This document shows positions 10,253 to 20,664 of a DNA stretch of 32,000 nucleotides, one piece after another. The notes under the pieces were generated by a model. The model was not told where the DNA came from and made no database searches. It was given only the letters and a program-made list of their open reading frames with translations. The translations under genes and the position numbers were made by a program. This DNA is from Nostoc sp. PCC 7120 = FACHB-418 (GTDB lineage Bacteria > Cyanobacteriota > Cyanobacteriia > Cyanobacteriales > Nostocaceae): contig NC_003272.1 in the NCBI RefSeq assembly GCF_000009705.1, positions 5,820,001 through 5,852,000 on the forward strand, given 5' to 3'. Position 1 is the first letter of the stretch. Each line of letters opens with the position of its first letter.

Positions 10253-11632
10253 TCACCAATTACCAAACTTTTCTAGCAAACATTCAGCAATGCGCCGTGC
10301 TGCACCTGGTTTACCCATGCGGCGGACTCCGTTTTCTCTGATGATGTGTAGGCTGTCAGGATTGGTGAAAAGCGATCGCACAACTGGAGCCACTTGTGCT
10401 GCTTCTTCGACTAAAATCAGAGATAAGCCTAACAGTCGGCTTTGGGCTTCGGCAAAACCAGGGTTATATTGTGGCCCCTGGCCAGGAATAGCGATCGCAG
10501 GTTTACCTAAACCGATAAACTGTTCTGTAGCTGTACCAGCCATTGCGATCGCTACATCACCCCAATGCAAACATTCGTTATATGATTGTTGAGTCAAAAT
10601 TAAATAAGCATTGCGTTGTTTAAATATCAAAGCATTGCTATCTTGCAGAGGTAGGGGTAAATCTGCGTGGGGTCGCCAACCTTGGGATTGTACAGTTTGG
10701 GCAAGTATATTCAAGTCTAAACCAGAAGCGATCGCCCCTAGAAATACCACGCTGCCAGAACTGGGTAAAAATGTATCGCGTTCTTGAAAACTCCCCATTA
10801 ATGCAGAAACACTAGTCATAATTATTTGCCAATTTTGATAAGCCTCTGGTGGACGAGAACCAGGAAGCAAGGTAATTACCAGTGGTCTGTCCATCTCTTG
10901 ATAGCGAGCATTGGCCATGTAAAATAATTGTGGTGACACTTTTGGTTCTAGACCGTCCATCATAGGATTGCCCACATCAAAAGCGGGAATCGGCCAATTT
11001 TTCAGGGTTTGCGTAGTCAATCCGTCTCTAGGAAACACCGCGCGACAACGGCGACGACTCATCAACCACCGTTCCCACGGATGATAAATTGAACCAGAAA
11101 AGTTTTCCCAACGAGCTGCTTTTGATTTCCTTGGTAATAATCCGACTTCATCCCGCACGTAGTATTCTGATTTCGCCGTTCCCACAAAAGCGTAATTAGC
11201 CCCACTGATAAAGGCAAACAATAAAGGGACAATATCGCCTACCGCGAGAATGGCGTTATTGTTACCTAATTTTTTTTGGGAACTTACCCAACGCCGCACC
11301 GCTTGAATTTGACTCCAAGTAAGCTGCACTAAACCCCCGCGTACATCCCGCGCCAATTGTCGCCCATCCATGTAGATAAAACCACCGGAAGGCATGGTAC
11401 GCACTGCACCAATCAGGGGGATATTTAAATTCTGGTAAGCCAGTCCTTCACCTACCAAAGGTAAAGCATAAATATCTGGTGGATTTGCTTGTTGCAATAA
11501 CGCCTGCAAAATGCGGACAGCTATCACATCTTCCCCATGACCATTACTTAATACCAATAATTGCAACCGAGAAGTTGCCATTGGTGAATTAGAAGCTAGA
11601 GATAAACGGGACACATCACTCATAAGAAACAA
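10253..11632 (-). CDS. Lipid-A-disaccharide synthase-related glycosyltransferase
   Basis: 459-aa ORF. LLVLSNGHGEDVIA near the N-terminus and the GTATEQFIGLGKP motif are typical of the cyanobacterial LpxB-related family. The true start may be the internal ATG at 11581. Confidence 0.7.
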   Translation of the reverse strand: MFLMSDVSRLSLASNSPMATSRLQLLVLSNGHGEDVIAVRILQALLQQANPPDIYALPLVGEGLAYQNLNIPLIGAVRTMPSGGFIYMDGRQLARDVRGGLVQLTWSQIQAVRRWVSSQKKLGNNNAILAVGDIVPLLFAFISGANYAFVGTAKSEYYVRDEVGLLPRKSKAARWENFSGSIYHPWERWLMSRRRCRAVFPRDGLTTQTLKNWPIPAFDVGNPMMDGLEPKVSPQLFYMANARYQEMDRPLVITLLPGSRPPEAYQNWQIIMTSVSALMGSFQERDTFLPSSGSVVFLGAIASGLDLNILAQTVQSQGWRPHADLPLPLQDSNALIFKQRNAYLILTQQSYNECLHWGDVAIAMAGTATEQFIGLGKPAIAIPGQGPQYNPGFAEAQSRLLGLSLILVEEAAQVAPVVRSLFTNPDSLHIIRENGVRRMGKPGAARRIAECLLEKFGNW

Positions 11633-11762: not shown

Positions 11763-13793
11763 ATGCGTATTTCTTCTGCTGCCTTACTGACTTTAACTAC
11801 TCTGGTGGCTAGCAATGCTACTCAACAAGCTATAGCTGCACCTCATACAGCCTCGACTCCATCTAAACAAAATGAGAACTTGGTAATTCCTGTTGTAGAG
11901 GAAACGCCTGTACAGTTAGGGAATGTGACACCACCGGAAACCGAAGTTACTCCCCAATTTTCTACTAAATCTAGAGTCATAGCTCAAAATTCTCCCGTTG
12001 TCCTTCCCTCTACACCCCGGCCAGTTGTTCCTCCTGCGCCCAAGCCTGCAACAACGGTAAACGAGTTAGTGGTGACAGCTACCGATGTGCAGATAGTCGG
12101 TGCAACACCAGAGTTACAGGAGATTATTCGCCAAGTAATTAAAACTCAAACTGGTGGAGATACCAGCCAAACTCAGTTACAAAGGGATGTAGCGGCAATT
12201 TTAGAAACTGGCTTATTTGCTAGTGCTAATGTTAATAGTCGCACTACTCCATCTGGATTGAATGTAGTGTATCAGGTGCAGCCTGTAATTGTGCGATCGC
12301 TCCAACTCACCGGTGCAAAAGCATTAACTTACTCAGTAGCCCAGCCACGTTTTCAGTCCCAAATCGGCAAACCCATCAGCCCGGAAGGCCTCAAGCAAGC
12401 AGTAGCACAAGTTAATCAATGGTATGCCGATAATGGTTATAATTTGGCGCGGGTGTTATCAATTGAACCCAACCGTCAAGGTATTCTGAATATCAATGTA
12501 GCGGAAGGTTTGGTGAGTGATATCAAGTTCCGCTTTGTCAACGATGACGGAAAAACCATTGATAGTAATGGTAATCCTGTAGGGGGAAGGACTAAACCCG
12601 ATTTTCTGCGACAACAACTCAAACTCCAGCCAGGACAAGTCTTCCAAGAAAATATAGTCAAGCAAGATGTACAGCAATTGTATCGTACAGGCTTATTTCA
12701 AAGTGTGAATGTGGCCTTTGCTGGAGATGCCACAAAACTGGATATGATTTACGAACTCAAGGAAAATGGGGCGCGGGCAATTAACTTGGGTGGTAGTTAT
12801 AACGGTGATGTGGGATTGATGGGTACGTTGAACTATCAAGACCAAAATATCGGCGGGAAGAATGATACTTTACTGGCGAATGTGGGGTTGAGTAGGACTG
12901 ATTTGCAGTTTGATACTAAATTTATTAGTCCCTATCGTGACACAAATAGCGATCGCTTAGGTTATACAGTCAATGCTTTCCGGCGGCGAGAAATTTCCGA
13001 AACCTTTGACGATGAGATTAAGTTAGCCAATGGCGATAAAGTGCGGGAAGGTAAGGTTGGTACAGGTATCAGCTTACAACGACCCATTGATGGTTGGAAT
13101 GCTTCTCTAGGGTTTAATTATAGCCGTACCAGCATCCGCGATCGCCAAGGTAATATCACTCCCACCGATGCCCAAGGAAATCCCTTATCTGTCAGTGGAA
13201 CTGGTGTTGATGACTTAACTACTGTATCTTTTAGCGCCACCAAAGACCAACGAGATAACCCCATCAACCCTACCCAAGGTTCTGTCGTCCGCGTCAGTAC
13301 AGAACAATCTGTACCCATCGGTCAGGGTAACATTTCCATGAATCGCCTCAAAGCCGATTACAGCCAGTATGTACCCGTAAATATCTTCAACAGTCAAACA
13401 CCCCAGGTCTTCGCCTTGAACGTGCAGGCTGGTACAGTCCTGGGTAACTTACCACCCTATGAAACATTTAACTTAGGTGGTTCTAACTCCGTCCGTGGCT
13501 ACGACGCGGGAAATGTCGGTAGTGGTCGTAGTTATGTATTAGCTTCAGCTGAATACCGCTTTCCCATAGTGCCAATAGTCGGGGGTGTGCTGTTCGCTGA
13601 CTTCGCCTCAGACTTAGGTTCTGGGGACACCGTTCTCGGAAATCCGGCTGGTGTGCGCGGTAAACCCGGTTCTGGCTTTGGTTATGGTGCAGGGATACGT
13701 GTAGACTCCCCCTTAGGCCTAATTCGCGCCGACTACGGCATTAACGACCAAGGGGAAAGTCGAGTACATTTAGGAATAGGGCAAAGATTTTAA
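11763..13793 (+). CDS. Omp85/BamA-family outer-membrane protein
   Basis: 676 aa. Signal peptide, Pro-rich spacer (PRPVVPPAPKPA), POTRA-like repeats (GLFASANV, GLFQSVNV), a beta-barrel with the GGSNSVRGY motif, and a C-terminal Phe. Confidence 0.9.
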   Translation: MRISSAALLTLTTLVASNATQQAIAAPHTASTPSKQNENLVIPVVEETPVQLGNVTPPETEVTPQFSTKSRVIAQNSPVVLPSTPRPVVPPAPKPATTVNELVVTATDVQIVGATPELQEIIRQVIKTQTGGDTSQTQLQRDVAAILETGLFASANVNSRTTPSGLNVVYQVQPVIVRSLQLTGAKALTYSVAQPRFQSQIGKPISPEGLKQAVAQVNQWYADNGYNLARVLSIEPNRQGILNINVAEGLVSDIKFRFVNDDGKTIDSNGNPVGGRTKPDFLRQQLKLQPGQVFQENIVKQDVQQLYRTGLFQSVNVAFAGDATKLDMIYELKENGARAINLGGSYNGDVGLMGTLNYQDQNIGGKNDTLLANVGLSRTDLQFDTKFISPYRDTNSDRLGYTVNAFRRREISETFDDEIKLANGDKVREGKVGTGISLQRPIDGWNASLGFNYSRTSIRDRQGNITPTDAQGNPLSVSGTGVDDLTTVSFSATKDQRDNPINPTQGSVVRVSTEQSVPIGQGNISMNRLKADYSQYVPVNIFNSQTPQVFALNVQAGTVLGNLPPYETFNLGGSNSVRGYDAGNVGSGRSYVLASAEYRFPIVPIVGGVLFADFASDLGSGDTVLGNPAGVRGKPGSGFGYGAGIRVDSPLGLIRADYGINDQGESRVHLGIGQRF

Positions 13794-13812
13794 ACATTAA
13801 TTATAAATTGAT

Positions 13813-13842
13813 GGGGCAGCGACCGTAGTTAATCGCTGCCCC
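13813..13842. terminator. Hairpin between convergent genes (possible bidirectional terminator)
   Basis: GGGGCAGCGA (13813-13822) pairs perfectly with TCGCTGCCCC (13833-13842) around a 10-nt loop. It is flanked by A-run/T-rich sequence, between the BamA stop (13793) and the fasciclin stop (13876). Confidence 0.55.
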
Positions 13843-13875
13843 AAAAATGTGTGTGTTATTTATGCAAACCCTTGC

Positions 13876-14277
13876 TTACGCAGGAATCAACACCGTATCA
13901 ATTACGTGAATAACACCGTTATCAGCAGCAACATCGGGAGTCGCAACTTTAGCATCATTGATTTGGACACCATTAGATGCGTCGATTTTTACATCTGAAC
14001 CCTGTACAGTAGTGGCTGACTTCAGCTTAACTACATCAGCTGCTAGGACTTTACCCGAAACAACATGATAAGTCAGGATTTTCTTAAGCTTGGGAATGTC
14101 TTTTAGCAAAGCATCTACGGTACCTTGTGGTAGTTTAGCAAATGCTTCATCGGTAGGAGCAAAAACTGTGAATGGACCAACACCTTTGAGTGTATCTACT
14201 AGCCCAGCAGCCTTAACCGCAGCAACTAAAGTGTTAAAGGAACCAGCATTTACAGCAGTGTCAACAATGTCAGCCAT
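13876..14277 (-). CDS. Fasciclin (FAS1) domain protein
   Basis: Motifs [17 protein letters not shown] and [14 protein letters not shown] prefer the start MADIVDTAV (ATG at 14277) over the 8-codon-longer ORF start at 14301. Confidence 0.85.
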
Positions 14278-14399
14278 GGGTTTTGATAAGTTTCTGTACA
14301 TCTAGATACAAAAGTAAACTTTTTCATGAAGAATTGTATCTATCTTTAGAGATGTACTTAATTTGAGTGAGCCAAAACTATTTTGAAGCTTACTCAAGC

Positions 14400-15818
14400 T
14401 TATCTCTTCTCTGATTTCCATGTCCCGTGGAAACTGTGGGGGATGACTTTGGGTAATTCTAGTTTGCAGATTGGTTCTTCATGGAGGCGATCGCTATCAT
14501 ATATCCAAACTTGACTACTGTGAGAATTGCCGTCGTACACCACTGTTAACACCCAATTGTCCGCAAGTATGGGTTCGGAAGGATAGCAGTTTTCTCCTGG
14601 GTAGGCTTCGATGAAGGTTTGTGTCTTGTGGTCAAAGCAGGCGATCGTGTTTAATAGTTCTTGGCTGATATCTGTGCCTTGACGGAATCCTGACATATAG
14701 GTATATCGAGATGCTTGACCGACGTTTTGCCGTGGCACATGAGGAAATTCACAATGTCTATCTAACAGTTGTTCAATTGCGGCTACTTTACCAGATTGGG
14801 GATGTAAATTGACCCGTGACAGTGTACTTGGAGCAGGTGTGTGAGTCTGACCAGTAGCTACTTCTTTGAGATATTGGTTAGTTTGAAAATCTTTGTAACG
14901 GGCAATATCCACAATGACTGCACCACTAGCATCTACATAACCGTTAGCAAAATGCCACTGATACCAAGGCTCTGTTTCCCCTCGACTCACTAAAGATAAA
15001 CTTTCACGGTCAATAACTAAAATCTGAGTCCCTAATTCTGGTCGCCACTGCATAGAATCACTATAGTTGCTAGTCCCCAACAATACAGGCAACATATTCA
15101 ACCGCACAGGGGAAATAAAAAATATTAAATACTTTCCTGCTAAAACAAAATCATGTATGAGTGGGAGACCATCTAGGGAGTATGCAGATTTTTGGATAAT
15201 TTTACCTGTAGAGTCACTTTTGTAAACATTCAACTTGGCATTTAACCCCAAGCTAATACCAAAATTAAAAATTTCTTTGGTCTGGGGGTCTTGCTTATAG
15301 TGGGCAGAATAAGTTAATCCATTAGTTAAGCCACCTAAATTATCTTCGCCCCAGGTTTCTAAAGTCTGTAAATCTAAAGCGTAAGGTCTTCCACCTTCCC
15401 ACAATGCCAAAAGTTTATCTGGTAATGCTAGGACTGAAGTATTGGCAGCATTTTTAATTGGTTTGCGCCATTGATTCCAAACGGGGCCTGGTGCAGTCAT
15501 CCCATAGTTGCCGTACAGAAATTTATCGGCGGTGTTTTCCACTTGATAGCCAACAGTCTGTACATAGCGGTAAGTTGCATGAACACCTCCATCGGTAAAA
15601 TTGACAGCCAAAATTGCTCCATCGCCATCAAACCAGTGTCCTGCAAGCATCCCTCCCCGTTCTAACCGTGCAGGTCCGTTGCGGTAGAGTGTACCCCGTA
15701 ATCCTTCAGGGATGTTACCAGAGATAATGGTTAACTGAGTAAGCGGAAATTCTTTTGCTGGTTCAGTTAATGCACTTGCCCAGGCTTTCTTATTTGACCT
15801 TTTATCAACTATCTGCAT
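14400..15818 (-). CDS. Carotenoid/apocarotenoid cleavage oxygenase (RPE65/CCD family)
   Basis: Four iron-ligand His contexts (GHWFDGDG, LIHDF, WHFANG, HSFHGTW) and overall CCD family similarity. I prefer the start MQIVDKR (15818) because the longer ORF would overlap the upstream gene by 59 nt. Confidence 0.9.
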   Translation of the reverse strand: MQIVDKRSNKKAWASALTEPAKEFPLTQLTIISGNIPEGLRGTLYRNGPARLERGGMLAGHWFDGDGAILAVNFTDGGVHATYRYVQTVGYQVENTADKFLYGNYGMTAPGPVWNQWRKPIKNAANTSVLALPDKLLALWEGGRPYALDLQTLETWGEDNLGGLTNGLTYSAHYKQDPQTKEIFNFGISLGLNAKLNVYKSDSTGKIIQKSAYSLDGLPLIHDFVLAGKYLIFFISPVRLNMLPVLLGTSNYSDSMQWRPELGTQILVIDRESLSLVSRGETEPWYQWHFANGYVDASGAVIVDIARYKDFQTNQYLKEVATGQTHTPAPSTLSRVNLHPQSGKVAAIEQLLDRHCEFPHVPRQNVGQASRYTYMSGFRQGTDISQELLNTIACFDHKTQTFIEAYPGENCYPSEPILADNWVLTVVYDGNSHSSQVWIYDSDRLHEEPICKLELPKVIPHSFHGTWKSEKR

Positions 15819-15840
15819 ATAAGTTGCTAACTTAAGAGAT

Positions 15841-17592
15841 TTAATTATCGGCGTTTCTGTATGCAACAACCTGATTCTTTTTTGTTCGCTTGGCCTCAAG
15901 CATTGCCTGATTTGCTCGACTCAATAAATCCTTAACAGTAATCCCAGGCTCTGATATAGCTATGCCAAAAGTTGCGGTGATACTTTCAAGGATCTGATCA
16001 CCATCCTTGAACTGCATTTGAGCAATATCTGCTCTTAGTTGCTCTACTCGCTCAATCAGTGTCTCCATCGTAACATTAGGTATCACAATCACAAATTCGT
16101 CACCACCCCATCTGCAAGGAATGTCAAAAGAGCGAATAGATGTTAAAAGTAGTTTTGCTAATGCCTTGAGAGCAATGTTGGCAGTTAAATGACCATAGCG
16201 AGAGTTGTAAGATTTAAAGTTATCAATATCCAGAAAAACAATGCCAAGAAATTGTCCCAACCGTTCAGCTTCTGCTAGCCTCTGATCTGTTATGGTTTGC
16301 ATATAGCTAGGGTTGAATAGTTGAGTTAACCCGTCCCGCAAATTGTCATGGGTTAGACGTTGTTTCATTAAGAGATTGTTGAGCGCAAAAGCTAAATATC
16401 TAGCAATTATCTCAGCAATTTGTTGTTCTTCTGAGCCGATTTCTTCCAGGGCATGAATGTGTAAAAACCCAACTACTTCAATTTGTCCTAACAATGGAAC
16501 ACACAAATGTGTACCATTAACAGGATGTATTAAATGACTGCACATCAGTCCTGGGTTATGAGGTGATAACAGGTTTAATTTACCTCTCCGTAATGCCCAA
16601 CACTCTGATTGTGAAAATACCTCTTTACTCTTTTTTTCGCTTCCCCAAAAAGTTCTCATCTCAACATAATTCTTGGAATTAGCAATTATGTTGATACAAC
16701 CACTCACGCTAGGAAAAAGCTTAGTAAAAGTTAAAGATACCACTTGATATACTTCATCTTCAGACTCGCAAGTATAGAGCATATTCACCATATCTGACAA
16801 ATATGTAACTTGCTGATTTTTTGCTTCTAATATTAGTGTTTTTTCTTCTAACTGCCGACTCAAATCCGCGATCACTCGTTGCGCTTCTACCGATTCTGTA
16901 ATATCTATGCTAATGCCTCCGATGCGACGCTCTCCCGTAACATGGTCACTAAACGGAAATTTAAAAGATAGCCAGTAATATGGTTTCTCATTACCTGGTG
17001 TCTTGACTTCTTCAATCAACTTCAATGGGCGTAGAGTTTTCAAAACGAGTTGATCATTTACCATTACCAGCCGCCCTTGTTCTGGATCTGGCAAGAATTC
17101 ACTATCTGTTTTACCTAGCCATTCAATTGGCCCCACCAAAAATCTAGACTGGATTTCTTTGTTGTAGTAAAGCACTCTAGATTGCTCATCTTTGATATAA
17201 GCTCCAAATGGGCCTTGATCTAAAAATAGCTGTTGCATCTGCTGGCTGCGCTGAAGCTCGCGGGCATCTCCTTGAAATTTGGCAATCAACTCTACAATTT
17301 GATAAGCGGTTGGCATCAGGCACAATAATGTAGATAAAGAGATAAACGCCATAATATTGAGTATGCCTAAGTGCAGGGAGGACACTGGCATATGCTGCTC
17401 AAAAATCGCCAAAAAGTGATGAAATCCACAAAATAGTACGAATGCGCCTGATAAGAAAAAGGCTAGCCAGAATTTAGAAGGGACAGTTGCTTTAGTTTTG
17501 CCAAATAAAACCGCTATTACTATGGGGATGCCAAAGTATGAAAATGCAGTAATGCCATGAGCGATTATAAAATTCCAGTAGATAATTTTCAT
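15841..17592 (-). CDS. Membrane sensor diguanylate cyclase: ETR1-like TM module - PAS - GAF - GGDEF
   Basis: 583 aa. N-terminal TM region with YFGIP and GAFVLFCGFHH motifs. PAS-like and GAF-like middle segments. C-terminal GGDEF domain (RWGGDEF) with an RSFD I-site 5 residues upstream. Confidence 0.85.
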   Translation of the reverse strand: MKIIYWNFIIAHGITAFSYFGIPIVIAVLFGKTKATVPSKFWLAFFLSGAFVLFCGFHHFLAIFEQHMPVSSLHLGILNIMAFISLSTLLCLMPTAYQIVELIAKFQGDARELQRSQQMQQLFLDQGPFGAYIKDEQSRVLYYNKEIQSRFLVGPIEWLGKTDSEFLPDPEQGRLVMVNDQLVLKTLRPLKLIEEVKTPGNEKPYYWLSFKFPFSDHVTGERRIGGISIDITESVEAQRVIADLSRQLEEKTLILEAKNQQVTYLSDMVNMLYTCESEDEVYQVVSLTFTKLFPSVSGCINIIANSKNYVEMRTFWGSEKKSKEVFSQSECWALRRGKLNLLSPHNPGLMCSHLIHPVNGTHLCVPLLGQIEVVGFLHIHALEEIGSEEQQIAEIIARYLAFALNNLLMKQRLTHDNLRDGLTQLFNPSYMQTITDQRLAEAERLGQFLGIVFLDIDNFKSYNSRYGHLTANIALKALAKLLLTSIRSFDIPCRWGGDEFVIVIPNVTMETLIERVEQLRADIAQMQFKDGDQILESITATFGIAISEPGITVKDLLSRANQAMLEAKRTKKNQVVAYRNADN

Positions 17593-17618
17593 TAGTCACT
17601 TAAGATAGCAATACTATT

Positions 17619-17881
17619 AGAGATTATTTATAAAGTAAATATTAAGTAGGGGAGGCAAAACGCGGTGTAGATATTCTTTCCGCTTTATTACCGTTGTGTT
17701 ATGGCTTCAGCCTAACGCACTGCTACATAACACGTTTCATTAAGCGCTTAAATTCATTTTTTTATGACTAATAATATCGAAATCCGTGCCTAAAACAACA
17801 CCAGTTGTTACAACGGAGGAAACATCCGCAACGCACTGACTCCCCTACAGAAATTTGATTTTTACTTTATAAATAACCTCT
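17619..17881. mobile_element. MITE-like fold-back element (about 263 bp) with long imperfect terminal inverted repeats
   Basis: AGAGATTATTTATAAAGTAAA (17619-17639) pairs with the reverse complement of 17861-17881 (20/21). GTAGGGGAG (17646-17654) pairs with CTCCCCTAC (17840-17848). Further imperfect inverted matches lie inside (CCGTTGT at about 17690 versus 17808-17814). No ORF. Confidence 0.5.
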
Positions 17882-18198
17882 TAGCAATCACCTTGAATTG
17901 ATGAAATACTTTTTTATTATTCGACTCATCTATTTTAATTTCTATTTTAATGAATGATGAACTTCTGCACGTAATTCAACATATATATTGAGATTGCATT
18001 TTATTCATTTTTTTCAATCTGCCATTGTACTGATAATTTAACGAAGGCAGGAGGCAGCTATGCTGAATGCTGTTTTTGTAACGGGGATTTATGCCTCGAT
18101 CCAAAAACTTTTCGCCTTAAAATGCGAGGTTTTAGACCCGATTGTTTCGATAACTATATCTAGAGAGATTTTATCAAATCAGACGAAGCTAACAGGGA

Positions 18199-20664
18199 TT
18201 AATTGAGCTTAAAGGGCAAGCTTGATGCGATTAATGTATCTACCGACTGGCTATCCAGTGGCTGGGAGAAAATGTATCCTTGTGCGTGTTTGCATTTTTT
18301 TATTTGCAACTGTCTTAATTGCTCCATTGTTTCTACACCCTCTGCTATGACATCTATATTTAGACTAAGTGCTAAGGAAATAATCGCCTGAACAATTTCT
18401 AAGTTTTTTTCATCAGCACCAAGGTTGATGACAAATGAACGATCAATCTTCAATGCACTAGAGGGAAACCGGTGCAGGTAACTCAAAGATGAATAACCTA
18501 TGCCAAAATCATCTAGGTGTAACTGAATATTCATCTGCTGCAATTGCAAAAGCATAGCAGTGGCTGATTCATGGTTCTCCATTAGTACGGTTTCCGTAAT
18601 CTCCAACTTGAGACTACTGGCTTCTAAACCCGTATCTTGCAGAATTTTGCGAATTTCCTCAATCAAATTGGGTTGGGAAAACTGTTTACTAGAAATATTG
18701 ACACTGATGGTTAAGGGTGGATGAGTAGTAAATTCCAATTGCCAAGCCCGCATTTGACGACAAGCTTCGCGTAACACCCAATAACCAATCGGCACAATCA
18801 GCCCAGTTTCTTCTGCTAATGAAATAAACCTTTCTGGAGAAACAAGCCCATGTTGAGGATGTTGCCAGCGTACAAGAGCCTCGAAACCGATAATTTTGTA
18901 GGTTTCTAGGGAAACAATTGGTTGATAATGAACCTGAAACTCTTGGCGTTCAACTGCCCGTCGTAAATCCATTTCTAACTGTAGTAGCTGGGCAGCTTGG
19001 CTGTACATACTAAAATCAAAGATTTCATGGCGGGCTTTTCCTAATGCTTTAGCACGGTACATTGCAATGTCGGCATCACGGATAAGCTCCTCAGCTAGAT
19101 TATAAGTATTTGTGCTTAAAGTGATACCAATGCTGATAGTACTAAATACTTCGTGTCCACTGAGGTTGAAGGCTCCTGTCAAAGACATATTTATTCTGTT
19201 AACTACATTTGTTACATCATTTAAGTCTTTGAGATCATCTAATAAGATCGTGAACTCATCTCCTCCTATACGGGCAACTGTATCTCCAGCACGCAGGCAC
19301 ATTTCTAACCTGCGTGCCAGCGCATTTAACAATTGATCGCCAATCATGTGACCAAGACTATCGTTGACAACTTTAAAACGATCCACATCGAGGAATAGAA
19401 CAGCAAATCTGTAGTCTGGATGACGTTTTACTACTGCTAGCGATCGCTCCAACCTTTCCACAAATAAGGCACGATTTGGCAGTCCAGTTAGTGAATCATG
19501 AAAAGCATCATGAATTAATTTCGCTTCTGCTTGCTTGAGAGCAGTAATGTCACGAGCGATACTTAAAACAAATTCTACTGAACTATCTTTAGCTAACTCA
19601 GGAACAAGACGAGTATGGTAATATTTTGTCCCCCAGGATGTAGGTAAATTGCTTTCAAACTCAGTCTGTTGCCCAGTTTTGAAAACTCGCTGGAGTTTAT
19701 AATCCCATATTCGACAAATTTCTTGTGGTAGATTCAACTCTACGTTAGTCTTACCGATGAATTTTTGGGCTAATATCCCTGTAACTTTCTCAATAGCGGG
19801 ATTGACGTAAACATAACACAATTGAGGATTAAACCTGACAATGATATCCGGTGTGTTCTCTACTACAGCTTTGAATTGTTTTTGACTATGGGCTAATGTC
19901 TCTAAAGTCTGTTTATGTTCATGGATTTCAGATTTTAGTTTATCGTGGGTTTTGATAATTTCAGAGGTGCGCTCTTTAACTTTATTTTCTAATTGATCAT
20001 GAGCTTGTTGGAGGGATTTTTCTATGCGTCGGCGTTTAGTAAGTTCTTGATTAATAATAATATTTGCTGAACTAACTAAACTAGCAGCTACTATGCTACA
20101 GGAAATAGTCAGCCAGGTAGTGCGATAAGCACTGTCGCTTGTTTGTATTGAACGCTGTTGCAATAAATTATTTTCTTCATTTTCTATAGCTTTAATAACC
20201 AGCCGAATTTTATCCATCAGCTGCTGTCCTTCATCCGTTTGAACTATTTTTAAAGCAGCTTCTAACTTCTCATCATTCCTTAATTTAATTGTCTGTTCCA
20301 GCAGAGTTAATTTTCTACTAATTAAAGGCTTAAGGGTAGTTATTCGTTCTTGTTGGCTGGGGTTATCTACAGTCAATTGGCTTAAAAGTTTTACTTTTTG
20401 ACCAATCTCATCAGTTGCCCTATGATAAGGCTCTAGATATGCGGGTTTACCCGTGAGGAGATAACCTCGTTGTCCAGTTTCGGCATCACTTACGTGGGCT
20501 ATTAATTCTTGAGTTTTTTCGAGTACTTCACGGGTGTGTATTACTGACTGAGCGTTTTTTCTGTACTCCAGTAGGCTGAGATAAGAGGCAACACCAATAA
20601 TAAACATGATTATTACTGCTACTACAAAAATATTGGTATTTTTTTTGTAAATAGACCAGTTCAT
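18199..20664 (-). CDS. CHASE3 - coiled coil - PAS - GGDEF - EAL c-di-GMP signalling protein
   Basis: 821 aa. TM1, then the CHASE3 signature (HTREVLEKT...ETGQRGYLLTG...YLEPY), then TM2. PAS domain. RIGGDEF with a RAGD I-site. EAL domain (EALVRW, DDFGIGYSSLSYL, EGVE). Confidence 0.9.
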   Translation of the reverse strand: MNWSIYKKNTNIFVVAVIIMFIIGVASYLSLLEYRKNAQSVIHTREVLEKTQELIAHVSDAETGQRGYLLTGKPAYLEPYHRATDEIGQKVKLLSQLTVDNPSQQERITTLKPLISRKLTLLEQTIKLRNDEKLEAALKIVQTDEGQQLMDKIRLVIKAIENEENNLLQQRSIQTSDSAYRTTWLTISCSIVAASLVSSANIIINQELTKRRRIEKSLQQAHDQLENKVKERTSEIIKTHDKLKSEIHEHKQTLETLAHSQKQFKAVVENTPDIIVRFNPQLCYVYVNPAIEKVTGILAQKFIGKTNVELNLPQEICRIWDYKLQRVFKTGQQTEFESNLPTSWGTKYYHTRLVPELAKDSSVEFVLSIARDITALKQAEAKLIHDAFHDSLTGLPNRALFVERLERSLAVVKRHPDYRFAVLFLDVDRFKVVNDSLGHMIGDQLLNALARRLEMCLRAGDTVARIGGDEFTILLDDLKDLNDVTNVVNRINMSLTGAFNLSGHEVFSTISIGITLSTNTYNLAEELIRDADIAMYRAKALGKARHEIFDFSMYSQAAQLLQLEMDLRRAVERQEFQVHYQPIVSLETYKIIGFEALVRWQHPQHGLVSPERFISLAEETGLIVPIGYWVLREACRQMRAWQLEFTTHPPLTISVNISSKQFSQPNLIEEIRKILQDTGLEASSLKLEITETVLMENHESATAMLLQLQQMNIQLHLDDFGIGYSSLSYLHRFPSSALKIDRSFVINLGADEKNLEIVQAIISLALSLNIDVIAEGVETMEQLRQLQIKKCKHAQGYIFSQPLDSQSVDTLIASSLPFKLN

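What the first reader, a model, noticed from the sequence alone, without database searches (positions are those of the whole stretch)
14400..17592. The ETR1-like diguanylate cyclase and a carotenoid cleavage oxygenase appear co-transcribed (22-nt gap)
The DGC stop (15841-15843) and the preferred oxygenase start (15818) are separated by only 22 nt on the same strand, with no hairpin between them. The alternative longer oxygenase ORF would even overlap the DGC 3' end. Carotenoid cleavage oxygenases produce apocarotenoids and volatile norisoprenoids, while the upstream gene encodes a membrane sensor for a small hydrophobic ligand. I know of no described pairing of this kind, which would link an apocarotenoid or volatile signal to c-di-GMP either as a sensing loop or by co-regulation. 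The link is an inference from gene order only.
Basis: inference. Interest (0 to 1): 0.65.

Follow-up and report, generated by a model that had tools for sequence, protein, structure and literature searches.

The report
Lineage-specific cyclase–carotenoid oxygenase gene adjacency
Two already-known Anabaena PCC 7120 genes, a membrane-sensor diguanylate cyclase (all4896) and an apocarotenoid oxygenase (all4895), lie 22 bases apart and may share a transcript, but only this strain's closest relatives have the pairing, so it looks like an accident of genome rearrangement and not a signalling system.

Summary
On the minus strand, the ETR1_N-PAS-GAF-GGDEF gene (15841-17592, all4896) stops 22 nt before the ATG (15818) of an RPE65-family oxygenase (14400-15818, all4895, also called NSC3 or NosDiox2). 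There is no terminator or stable hairpin between them. The window is Nostoc/Anabaena sp. PCC 7120.

Only about 15 nt of the oxygenase's ancestral leader survive at the junction, so its native promoter region is gone. Read-through from the all4896 promoter is therefore structurally likely. It is unproven, because the public RNA-seq counts are too low to decide.

The proposed functional link gets no comparative support:
- Of 80 species with an orthologous oxygenase (64-92% identity), only the closest (92%) has the cyclase upstream. The other 79 have no GGDEF gene within 7 kb.
- Seven cyclase orthologs at 75-89% identity sit in seven different contexts, none next to an oxygenase.
- None of 80 loci encoding canonical ethylene-binding domains has an RPE65 gene within 10 kb.
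- Elsewhere the oxygenase is tightly coupled to other, unrelated upstream genes.

NSC3's known in-vitro products are C18-C22 apocarotenoids, not small volatiles.

Verdict: a real but ordinary, recent, clade-restricted operon-like adjacency. Interest is low.

The parts
17587..18036 (-). all4896 upstream (promoter) region. This is the fragment used for FurA gel-shift assays in the literature.
   Evidence: Primers Pall4896_up and Pall4896_dw from the supplement of PMC12282138 match the window sequence read. The paper reports FurA binding to this fragment.
15841..17592 (-). all4896: a 583-aa membrane sensor diguanylate cyclase with ETR1_N-PAS_4-GAF_2-GGDEF domains.
   Evidence: ORF and Pfam. The GGDEF motif is intact, with an RxxD I-site (RSFD) five residues upstream, read directly from the translation. 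The 100%-identity cluster occurs on a contig of 6,413,771 bp.
17290..17577 (-). ETR1-like N-terminal (ethylene-binding-type) transmembrane domain, residues 6-101.
   Evidence: PF25487 scores 42.7 bits against a cut-off of 27. The family-invariant residues Y19, I22, F51, C55, H59 and S85 are kept, as is the near-invariant P23. H12, S48, H58, L78, M81 and L89 depart from the majority D, F, T, K, T and A.
16888..17223 (-). PAS_4 domain, residues 124-235.
   Evidence: Pfam E = 1.5e-18.
16381..16764 (-). GAF-like domain, residues 277-404 (weak match).
   Evidence: Pfam GAF_2 scores 22.4 bits, below the 28.6 cut-off. GAF_2/GAF is precomputed for many orthologs.
15871..16338 (-). GGDEF catalytic domain, residues 419-574.
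   Evidence: Pfam 129 bits, TIGR00254 129 bits, and PDB diguanylate cyclases at E down to 1e-21.
15819..15840 (-). 22-nt spacer between the DGC stop and the oxygenase start. Its 3' ~15 nt are the remnant of the oxygenase's ancestral leader.
   Evidence: The same 22-nt length is found in L005 and L173. The TTAGCAAnTTnAT motif is shared with the oxygenase leaders of Anabaena azotica and A. subtropica.
15844..15849 (-). GATAAT, a -10-like hexamer formed by the last two DGC codons (Asp-Asn). It is a candidate internal promoter element and is speculative.
   Evidence: Read. It matches TATAAT at 5 of 6 positions and has no good -35. The consensus scan did not report it.
14400..15818 (-). all4895: a 472-aa carotenoid/apocarotenoid cleavage oxygenase (NSC3 = NosDiox2).
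   Evidence: Pfam RPE65 425 bits. The closest solved structure is Synechocystis apocarotenoid oxygenase 2BIW (E = 1.6e-61), with all four iron-ligand His columns aligned. The gene name and in-vitro activity come from PMC7029182 and PMC5133782.

Best explanation
An ancestor of the PCC 7120 / ATCC 29413 / FACHB-3921 clade underwent a rearrangement. It joined the 3' end of the sensor diguanylate cyclase gene all4896 to a point about 20 nt upstream of the start codon of the apocarotenoid oxygenase gene all4895. The oxygenase lost its own upstream region, and no terminator separates the genes. The oxygenase is therefore most likely transcribed, at least in part, by read-through from the FurA-bound all4896 promoter, at the same very low level. 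The two products are a c-di-GMP synthase with an ETR1-type copper/olefin-sensor-like membrane domain and an Fe(II) oxygenase that cuts apocarotenoids. They are probably functionally unrelated, and the pairing is a neutral, clade-specific operon-like fusion. What is shown: gene identities, junction anatomy, absence of conservation, and purifying selection on both genes. What is inferred: read-through transcription and the lack of a functional link.
For: Junction anatomy: 22 nt, same strand, no terminator-like site and no stable structure. Only the last ~15 nt before the ATG resemble the oxygenase leaders of other Nostocales, and everything further upstream is DGC coding sequence. The same junction occurs in relatives whose DGC is 92% and 94% identical (L005, L173) and in all four contexts of the identical protein. 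Both genes are under purifying selection between the window and L005 (dN/dS 0.11 and 0.17, dS 0.24-0.32). Expression is similar and low: all4895 has 14/20/20/29 reads and all4896 has 30/19/45/52 reads at 0/6/12/21 h, both rising about 1.7-2-fold by 21 h, while the downstream all4894 falls (PMC3141674 supplement). FurA binds the all4896 upstream fragment (PMC12282138). Against a functional link: 79/80 oxygenase-ortholog loci have no EBD or GGDEF gene within 7 kb. DGC orthologs at 89, 88, 83, 83, 76 and 75% identity each sit in a different context without an oxygenase. None of 80 canonical EBD loci (989 kb) has an RPE65 homolog. The oxygenase is tightly coupled (<70 nt, same strand) to unrelated partners in other lineages, including glyoxalase-like, alcohol-dehydrogenase-like, GNAT, PIN and RND genes.
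Against: No direct transcript evidence spans 15810-15850. The primary TSS map (Mitschke et al. 2011) is not held in the library. In the FurA-depletion RNA-seq, all4896 fell 5.1-fold while all4895 rose 2.4-fold (PMC4788461 supplement), which would argue for independent transcription if it were real. However, the fold changes are small-integer ratios times 1.269, meaning a handful of reads. PMC12282138 lists all4896 as a single-gene transcriptional unit, based on MicrobesOnline/CyanoCyc predictions. A -10-like GATAAT lies at the DGC 3' end. Lack of conservation does not exclude a young, clade-specific functional coupling, and the pair has been kept through dS of about 0.3.
Confidence: 0.6

Rival explanations
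1. The genes are adjacent but transcribed independently. all4895 would be expressed from a promoter inside the 3' part of all4896, for example using the GATAAT at 15849-15844 to give a leader of about 19 nt, or from a site further upstream in the GGDEF-coding region. Read-through would be negligible.
For: All4896 and all4895 change in opposite directions on FurA depletion. all4896 is listed as a monocistronic unit in PMC12282138. A 5/6 match to TATAAT lies 21-26 nt upstream of the ATG. Many cyanobacterial promoters lack a -35 element (general knowledge).
Against: The RNA-seq values come from very few reads (RPKM 0.4-2.3, with quantised fold changes). The GATAAT is forced by the Asp-Asn codons and has no -35. 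The consensus scan found fewer promoter-like sites than shuffles and none near the junction. There is no terminator to stop the DGC transcript.
Confidence: 0.3
2. The pair is a functional module in which an oxygenase product (an apocarotenoid or a volatile olefin) is sensed by the ETR1-like domain of the cyclase, or both respond together, coupling carotenoid cleavage to c-di-GMP.
For: The genes are tightly adjacent, and the pairing is retained in the clade under purifying selection. The EBD keeps the Cys/His copper ligands. One literature hint points to another EBD gene next to a carotenoid gene: GeiEtr1 is grouped with a lycopene cyclase in Geitlerinema (PMC6682694).
Against: The adjacency is absent outside the >=92% identity clade in both directions, and 0/80 canonical EBD loci carry an RPE65 gene. 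Reported NSC3 products are C18-C22 apocarotenoids, which are far larger than the olefins known to bind ETR1-type sites (general knowledge). The all4896 deletion has no reported heterocyst phenotype, and the enzyme is not among the three major DGCs (CdgS, All1219, Alr3599) identified in PCC 7120 (PMC8682488, PMC13075795).
Confidence: 0.05
3. The pair is co-regulated by metal status without any ligand loop. The FurA-activated promoter would drive both a copper-dependent sensor and an Fe(II)-dependent oxygenase, so that both are made only when iron is sufficient.
For: FurA binds the all4896 promoter fragment, and all4896 drops when FurA is depleted. Carotenoid cleavage oxygenases need Fe(II) held by four His, all of which are present.
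Against: all4895 did not fall with all4896 in the same data set, although that data set is noisy. There is no conservation of the pairing. This explanation is purely inferential.
Confidence: 0.05

Closest known systems
Bacterial ethylene receptors with an ETR1-type ethylene-binding domain: SynEtr1/Slr1212 of Synechocystis, GeiEtr1/2 of Geitlerinema, AzoEtr1 of Azospirillum
   Same: All4896 has an N-terminal three-helix ETR1_N domain with the invariant Cys/His pair and the Tyr/Ile/Pro/Phe/Ser positions. Cyanobacterial proteins of this kind bind ethylene and affect surface behaviours (PMC6682694, PMC11819568).
   Different: Judging by the citing papers read here and my own recollection, the characterised receptors signal mainly through histidine-kinase-type outputs. 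All4896 has a PAS-GAF-GGDEF output. It also lacks the Asp25/Lys91 pair of ETR1 (H12/L78) and differs at four more highly conserved columns. No ligand-binding data exist for it.
EBD-GGDEF fusion proteins in general
   Same: 14 of 108 representative EBD clusters carry a GGDEF domain. One of them, P0246, has the same EBD-PAS-GAF-GGDEF order and also a His at the Asp25 position.
   Different: As far as I could find, none has been characterised, and none is known to be paired with a carotenoid oxygenase.
NSC3 / NosDiox2 (All4895) and Synechocystis apocarotenoid-15,15'-oxygenase (PDB 2BIW)
   Same: The window gene is NSC3 itself. It belongs to the RPE65 family, has four conserved His, and aligns to 2BIW at E = 1.6e-61.
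   Different: NSC3 cleaves beta-apo-8'-carotenal at C13-C14, C13'-C14' and C15-C15' in vitro (PMC5133782), which is broader than ACO's 15,15' specificity. Its physiological substrate is unknown.
Ordinary lineage-specific operon formation by rearrangement (short same-strand spacing without functional relatedness)
   Same: The gap is short, there is no terminator, the downstream gene's promoter has been displaced, and the pairing is found only in very close relatives.
   Different: Nothing differs. This is the category the locus best fits.

Membership tests
ETR1_N ethylene-binding domain (PF25487) | Profile match above the curated cut-off at the N-terminus | tested here: met
   42.7 bits against a cut-off of 27, residues 6-101. 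BLASTP to the Arabidopsis ETR1 N-terminus gives 31% identity and E = 7e-07.
ETR1_N ethylene-binding domain (PF25487) | Copper(I)-ligand Cys65 and His69 in helix 2, plus invariant Tyr32, Ile35, Phe61 and Ser98 | tested here: met
   C55, H59, Y19, I22, F51 and S85 are present. These columns are invariant in all 110 aligned sequences.
ETR1_N ethylene-binding domain (PF25487) | Asp25 and Lys91 of ETR1, reported as important for ethylene binding and signalling (Wang et al. 2006, from my own knowledge) | tested here: not met
   H12 and L78 occupy these columns. Across the sample the Asp25 column is D 80 / N 16 / H 11 and the Lys91 column is K 80 / L 10. The two columns co-vary.
ETR1_N ethylene-binding domain (PF25487) | Saturable ethylene binding | not testable with these tools
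   This needs a radiolabelled-ethylene binding assay on the expressed protein.
GGDEF diguanylate cyclase | GGDEF domain with an intact GG(D/E)EF active-site motif and RxxD I-site | tested here: met
   Pfam 129 bits and TIGR00254 129 bits. The sequence ...RSFDIPCRWGGDEFVIV... is in the translation.
GGDEF diguanylate cyclase | c-di-GMP synthesis activity | not testable with these tools
   The literature treats All4896 as one of eight DGC-only enzymes and not as one of the three major DGCs (PMC13075795). I found no enzymology.
Carotenoid cleavage oxygenase (RPE65, PF03055) | Full-length profile match and four iron-ligand histidines | tested here: met
   424.9 bits over profile positions 4-468 of 469. 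His residues align in the SAH, IHDF, WHFAN and FHGTW segments to the ACO 2BIW ligand columns. The ACO residue numbers come from memory.
Carotenoid cleavage oxygenase (RPE65, PF03055) | Demonstrated cleavage of (apo)carotenoids | not tested
   Taken from the literature only: NSC3/NosDiox2 activity as summarised in PMC5133782 and PMC7029182.
Operon (single transcription unit) | Same strand, short intergenic distance, no intervening terminator | tested here: met
   22 nt, no terminator-like site, junction fold z = -0.48.
Operon (single transcription unit) | A transcript spanning both genes, or correlated expression | tested here: inconclusive
   Flaherty counts are low and similar, with r of about 0.5 over 4 time points, calculated by hand. 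The FurA-depletion data show opposite changes but rest on a few reads.
Conserved functional gene pair | Adjacency conserved across divergent genomes | tested here: not met
   1/80 oxygenase-ortholog loci, 0/7 DGC-ortholog contexts at <=89% identity, and 0/80 canonical EBD loci.

The most novel reading that the evidence does not exclude
In the PCC 7120 clade only, the divergent ETR1-type domain of All4896 (His12/His58/Leu78 variant, copper ligands retained) senses an olefinic compound connected with carotenoid breakdown. Co-transcription with NSC3 would then make a young, clade-specific feedback between carotenoid cleavage and c-di-GMP.
Probability: 0.04. Interest if true: 0.6.

Novelty: already known. 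Interest (0 to 1): 0.15.

Why it matters
It matters little for biology at large. The pairing is not a conserved system, so it cannot be used to infer a ligand for cyanobacterial ethylene-binding-type sensors or a signalling role for apocarotenoids.

There are two practical points for people working on Anabaena PCC 7120:
- Deletions or insertions in all4896, which are used in the multi-gene c-di-GMP knockout strains, may have polar effects on the apocarotenoid oxygenase all4895 if the genes are co-transcribed.
- All4896, treated in the c-di-GMP literature simply as a PAS-containing cyclase, carries an ETR1-type membrane domain of an unusual subtype. That domain would be worth a direct ethylene/copper binding test independently of the oxygenase.

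Tried and rejected
- A homolog search with the 116-aa EBD alone returned only four short fragments and was useless for a neighbourhood survey.
I fell back on 8 canonical EBDs (A2). The metagenome survey therefore samples canonical EBDs at 58-76% identity to the query, not the All4896 subtype, and is probably taxonomically narrow.
- The Mitschke et al. 2011 TSS data could not be retrieved by DOI or PMC id.
- I first read the FurA-depletion RNA-seq as evidence against co-transcription, then discounted it. The fold changes (-5.075, +2.365, -1.903, -1.269) are integer ratios (4, 3, 1.5, 1) scaled by 1.269, which means single-digit read counts.
- The mention of all4895 as an OprB-like porin in PMC6584798 is evidently a gene-number mix-up and was ignored.
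- I considered whether the GAF domain might be a bilin- or retinal-binding photosensor. It is only a sub-threshold GAF_2 match without an obvious Cys-His chromophore motif, so I did not pursue this.
- The TTG-extended oxygenase ORF (15899) was rejected on ortholog N-termini.
- Composition (GC 0.36-0.44 across the three genes) gave no sign of foreign origin.
Full report
**Identity of the locus**

The window is the Nostoc/Anabaena sp. PCC 7120 chromosome.
- The 583-aa cyclase is 100% identical to a cluster whose longest contig is 6,413,771 bp.
- The published gel-shift primers for the 'all4896 promoter' match the window at 18036-17587.
- The gene table of Flaherty et al. 2011 places all4894-all4897 at chromosome coordinates that map onto the window with an offset of 5,820,000.

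On the minus strand the order is:
- all4897: CHASE3-PAS-GGDEF-EAL, 18199-20664.
- all4896: ETR1_N-PAS_4-GAF_2-GGDEF, 15841-17592.
- all4895: RPE65-family oxygenase, 14400-15818.
- all4894: fasciclin, 13876-14301.

The Omp85 gene alr4893 lies on the other strand.

**Check of the observation**

- The cyclase ends with TAA at 15843-15841.
- The oxygenase ATG is at 15818.
- 22 nt lie between them.

The alternative TTG start at 15899 is not used. All orthologs are 470-480 aa, align from residue 1 of the ATG form, and begin with the same ATGCA... codons.

Nothing separates the genes:
- No terminator-like hairpin occurs anywhere in 13700-18400, against 3.7 expected in shuffles.
- The 151-nt junction RNA is no more structured than shuffled sequence (z = -0.48).
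- No Rfam family matches.

**What the two genes are**

All4896 is a membrane sensor diguanylate cyclase.
- It has an ETR1-type N-terminal domain above Pfam's cut-off.
- Its GGDEF motif is intact and it has an RxxD inhibitory site.

I aligned it with 108 representative ETR1_N proteins found by an exhaustive HMMER search, plus Arabidopsis ETR1.
- It keeps every invariant column, including the copper-ligand Cys and His: Y19, I22, F51, C55, H59 and S85.
- It departs from the strong majority at six columns. These are ETR1 D25 (here H12), F58 (S48), T68 (H58), K91 (L78), T94 (M81) and A102 (L89).
- The D25 and K91 columns co-vary across the family.

The domain is therefore a genuine but divergent member. 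Whether it binds ethylene is open. EBD-GGDEF fusions are not rare: 14 of 108 representative clusters have one.

All4895 is the already characterised NSC3/NosDiox2.
- Its closest solved relative is Synechocystis apocarotenoid oxygenase (2BIW, E = 1.6e-61), with the four iron-ligand histidines aligned.
- In vitro it cuts beta-apo-8'-carotenal at C13-C14, C13'-C14' and C15-C15'. The products are apo-13-carotenone, apo-14'-carotenal and retinal (PMC5133782; PMC7029182).
The beta-ionone-forming enzyme of this organism is a different protein, NSC1.

**Is the adjacency conserved?**

No. I surveyed it from three directions.

1. A scan of one genome per species with the oxygenase returned 80 orthologous loci at 64-92% identity, with 7 kb of flank.
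   - tblastn with the cyclase, its EBD alone, its PAS-GAF part and the neighbouring genes found the cyclase upstream in only one locus. That is the closest one, Nostoc parmelioides FACHB-3921 (92%), with the same 22-nt spacer.
   - The other 79 have no EBD or GGDEF gene at all within 7 kb.
   - Their commonest neighbour is a miaB-like gene downstream, in 31/80 loci.
2. Cyclase orthologs at 89, 88, 83, 83, 76 and 75% identity each lie in a different context. None is followed by an oxygenase. A 94% ortholog has the identical junction. The sources were a Logan contig, Trichormus sp. M33_DOE_039, a JGI contig, Nostoc sp. MS1, N. edaphicum and Stigonema ocellatum.
3. Eighty metagenomic loci encoding canonical ethylene-binding domains (989 kb in all) contain no RPE65 homolog.

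The pairing therefore exists only in the clade at about 92% protein identity or more.

In other lineages the oxygenase has been placed within 12-70 nt downstream of quite different same-strand genes. These include a glyoxalase-like gene in five Calothrix-group genomes, an alcohol-dehydrogenase-like gene, a GNAT, a PIN toxin and an RND transporter. In 50 of 80 loci the oxygenase has a divergent upstream neighbour and hence its own promoter region.

**How the junction arose and what follows**

I compared the 150 nt upstream of the oxygenase ATG across genomes.
- Only the last ~15 nt (TTAGCAAnTTnAT-ATG) are shared with other Nostocales.
- Everything further upstream in the window is the cyclase's coding sequence and stop codon.

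The cyclase has its normal length and C-terminus. The breakpoint therefore lies in the few bases after its stop, and the oxygenase's ancestral promoter region was lost.

Both genes are intact and under purifying selection between the window and FACHB-3921 (dN/dS 0.11 and 0.17 at dS 0.24-0.32), so the oxygenase must still be expressed. The simplest route is read-through from the all4896 promoter, a 606-nt intergenic region to which FurA binds in vitro (PMC12282138). The alternative is a promoter inside the cyclase gene. The last two codons happen to form GATAAT 21-26 nt before the ATG.

**Expression data**

- In Flaherty et al. 2011 both genes are barely expressed. all4895 has 14/20/20/29 reads and all4896 has 30/19/45/52 reads at 0/6/12/21 h after nitrogen step-down.
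- Both drift upward while the downstream all4894 goes down. This is compatible with co-transcription, but it is far from proof.
- In the FurA-depletion RNA-seq, all4896 falls (RPKM 1.81 to 0.36) and all4895 rises (0.99 to 2.34).
- Those fold changes are small-integer ratios multiplied by a constant 1.269, so they rest on one to a few reads and carry no weight.
- The decisive TSS map (Mitschke et al. 2011) is not in the accessible library.

**Verdict**

I put it at about 0.6 for at least partial read-through.

- The locus is best described as a recent, clade-restricted, probably neutral operon-like fusion of two known genes.
- Published genetics gives all4896 no heterocyst phenotype of its own and does not count it among the three major DGCs maintaining c-di-GMP (PMC8682488, PMC13075795).
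- The residual novel reading, a young clade-specific functional coupling through the unusual EBD subtype, cannot be excluded, but I rate it at about 4%.

Noticed in passing
window 17290-17577 (minus strand; All4896 residues 6-101): The ETR1-type domain is an unusual subtype. It keeps the Cu-ligand Cys55/His59 and all invariant columns. It has His, Ser, His, Leu, Met and Leu where more than 70-90% of 110 family members have Asp25, Phe58, Thr68, Lys91, Thr94 and Ala102 (ETR1 numbering). Asp25 and Lys91 co-vary across the family, which suggests an interacting pair that a minority subfamily has replaced.
   Followed up: partly
window 17491-17592 (minus strand): The original gene table used by Flaherty et al. 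2011 gives all4896 as 1651 nt (chromosome 5835840-5837491). That starts about 34 codons downstream of the ATG supported by all 583-aa orthologs. The truncation removes half of the first transmembrane helix, including Tyr19 and Pro23. The same table also uses the overlapping long form of all4895. My inference is that this may be why the c-di-GMP literature does not mention the ethylene-binding-type domain.
   Followed up: partly
window 11763-14301 compared with L005 8426-8495: The fasciclin gene all4894 and the Omp85 gene alr4893 lie between the oxygenase and the TIGR03492 lipid-A-disaccharide-synthase-related gene (10253-11632) in PCC 7120. They are absent from that position in Nostoc parmelioides FACHB-3921, where the oxygenase is followed directly by the TIGR03492 gene. 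This is a second recent rearrangement at the same locus.
   Followed up: partly
L115 and L087 (both on contig Ga0209172_10000112, Trichormus sp. M33_DOE_039-like): The same genome carries both an All4896-type EBD cyclase and, about 80 kb away, a canonical (Asp/Lys-type) ethylene-binding-domain protein. Some Nostocales therefore have two distinct EBD sensor types.
   Followed up: no
window 18199-20664 and 15841-17592: Two c-di-GMP genes sit in tandem, 606 nt apart: all4897 (CHASE3-PAS-GGDEF-EAL) and all4896. This tandem, too, is seen only in the >=92% clade (L005, L173). In the literature, all4897 is the phosphodiesterase whose deletion, on top of six others, triggers a sharp c-di-GMP rise (PMC13075795).
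   Followed up: partly
L008 6850-6960, L027 6860-6950, L090 7760-7800: Heptamer tandem repeats lie next to the orthologous genes in other Nostocales. CCCCTGC/CTCATCT-type runs lie upstream of the oxygenase, and six copies of CAGAATT follow the cyclase stop in N. edaphicum. They resemble the short tandemly repeated sequences typical of heterocystous cyanobacteria, which may promote the frequent rearrangements seen here.
   Followed up: no
L075 5945-6988: In Iningainema tapete a zinc-type alcohol dehydrogenase / quinone oxidoreductase-like gene ends 12 nt before the orthologous oxygenase. This pairing makes more biochemical sense, since it could reduce apocarotenal products, than the cyclase pairing does.
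   Followed up: no
window 17696-17733: A perfect 8-bp inverted repeat (GTGTTATG ... CATAACAC, 22-nt loop) lies in the all4896 upstream region, about 100-140 nt before the start codon and inside the FurA gel-shift fragment. Its function is unknown.
   Followed up: no
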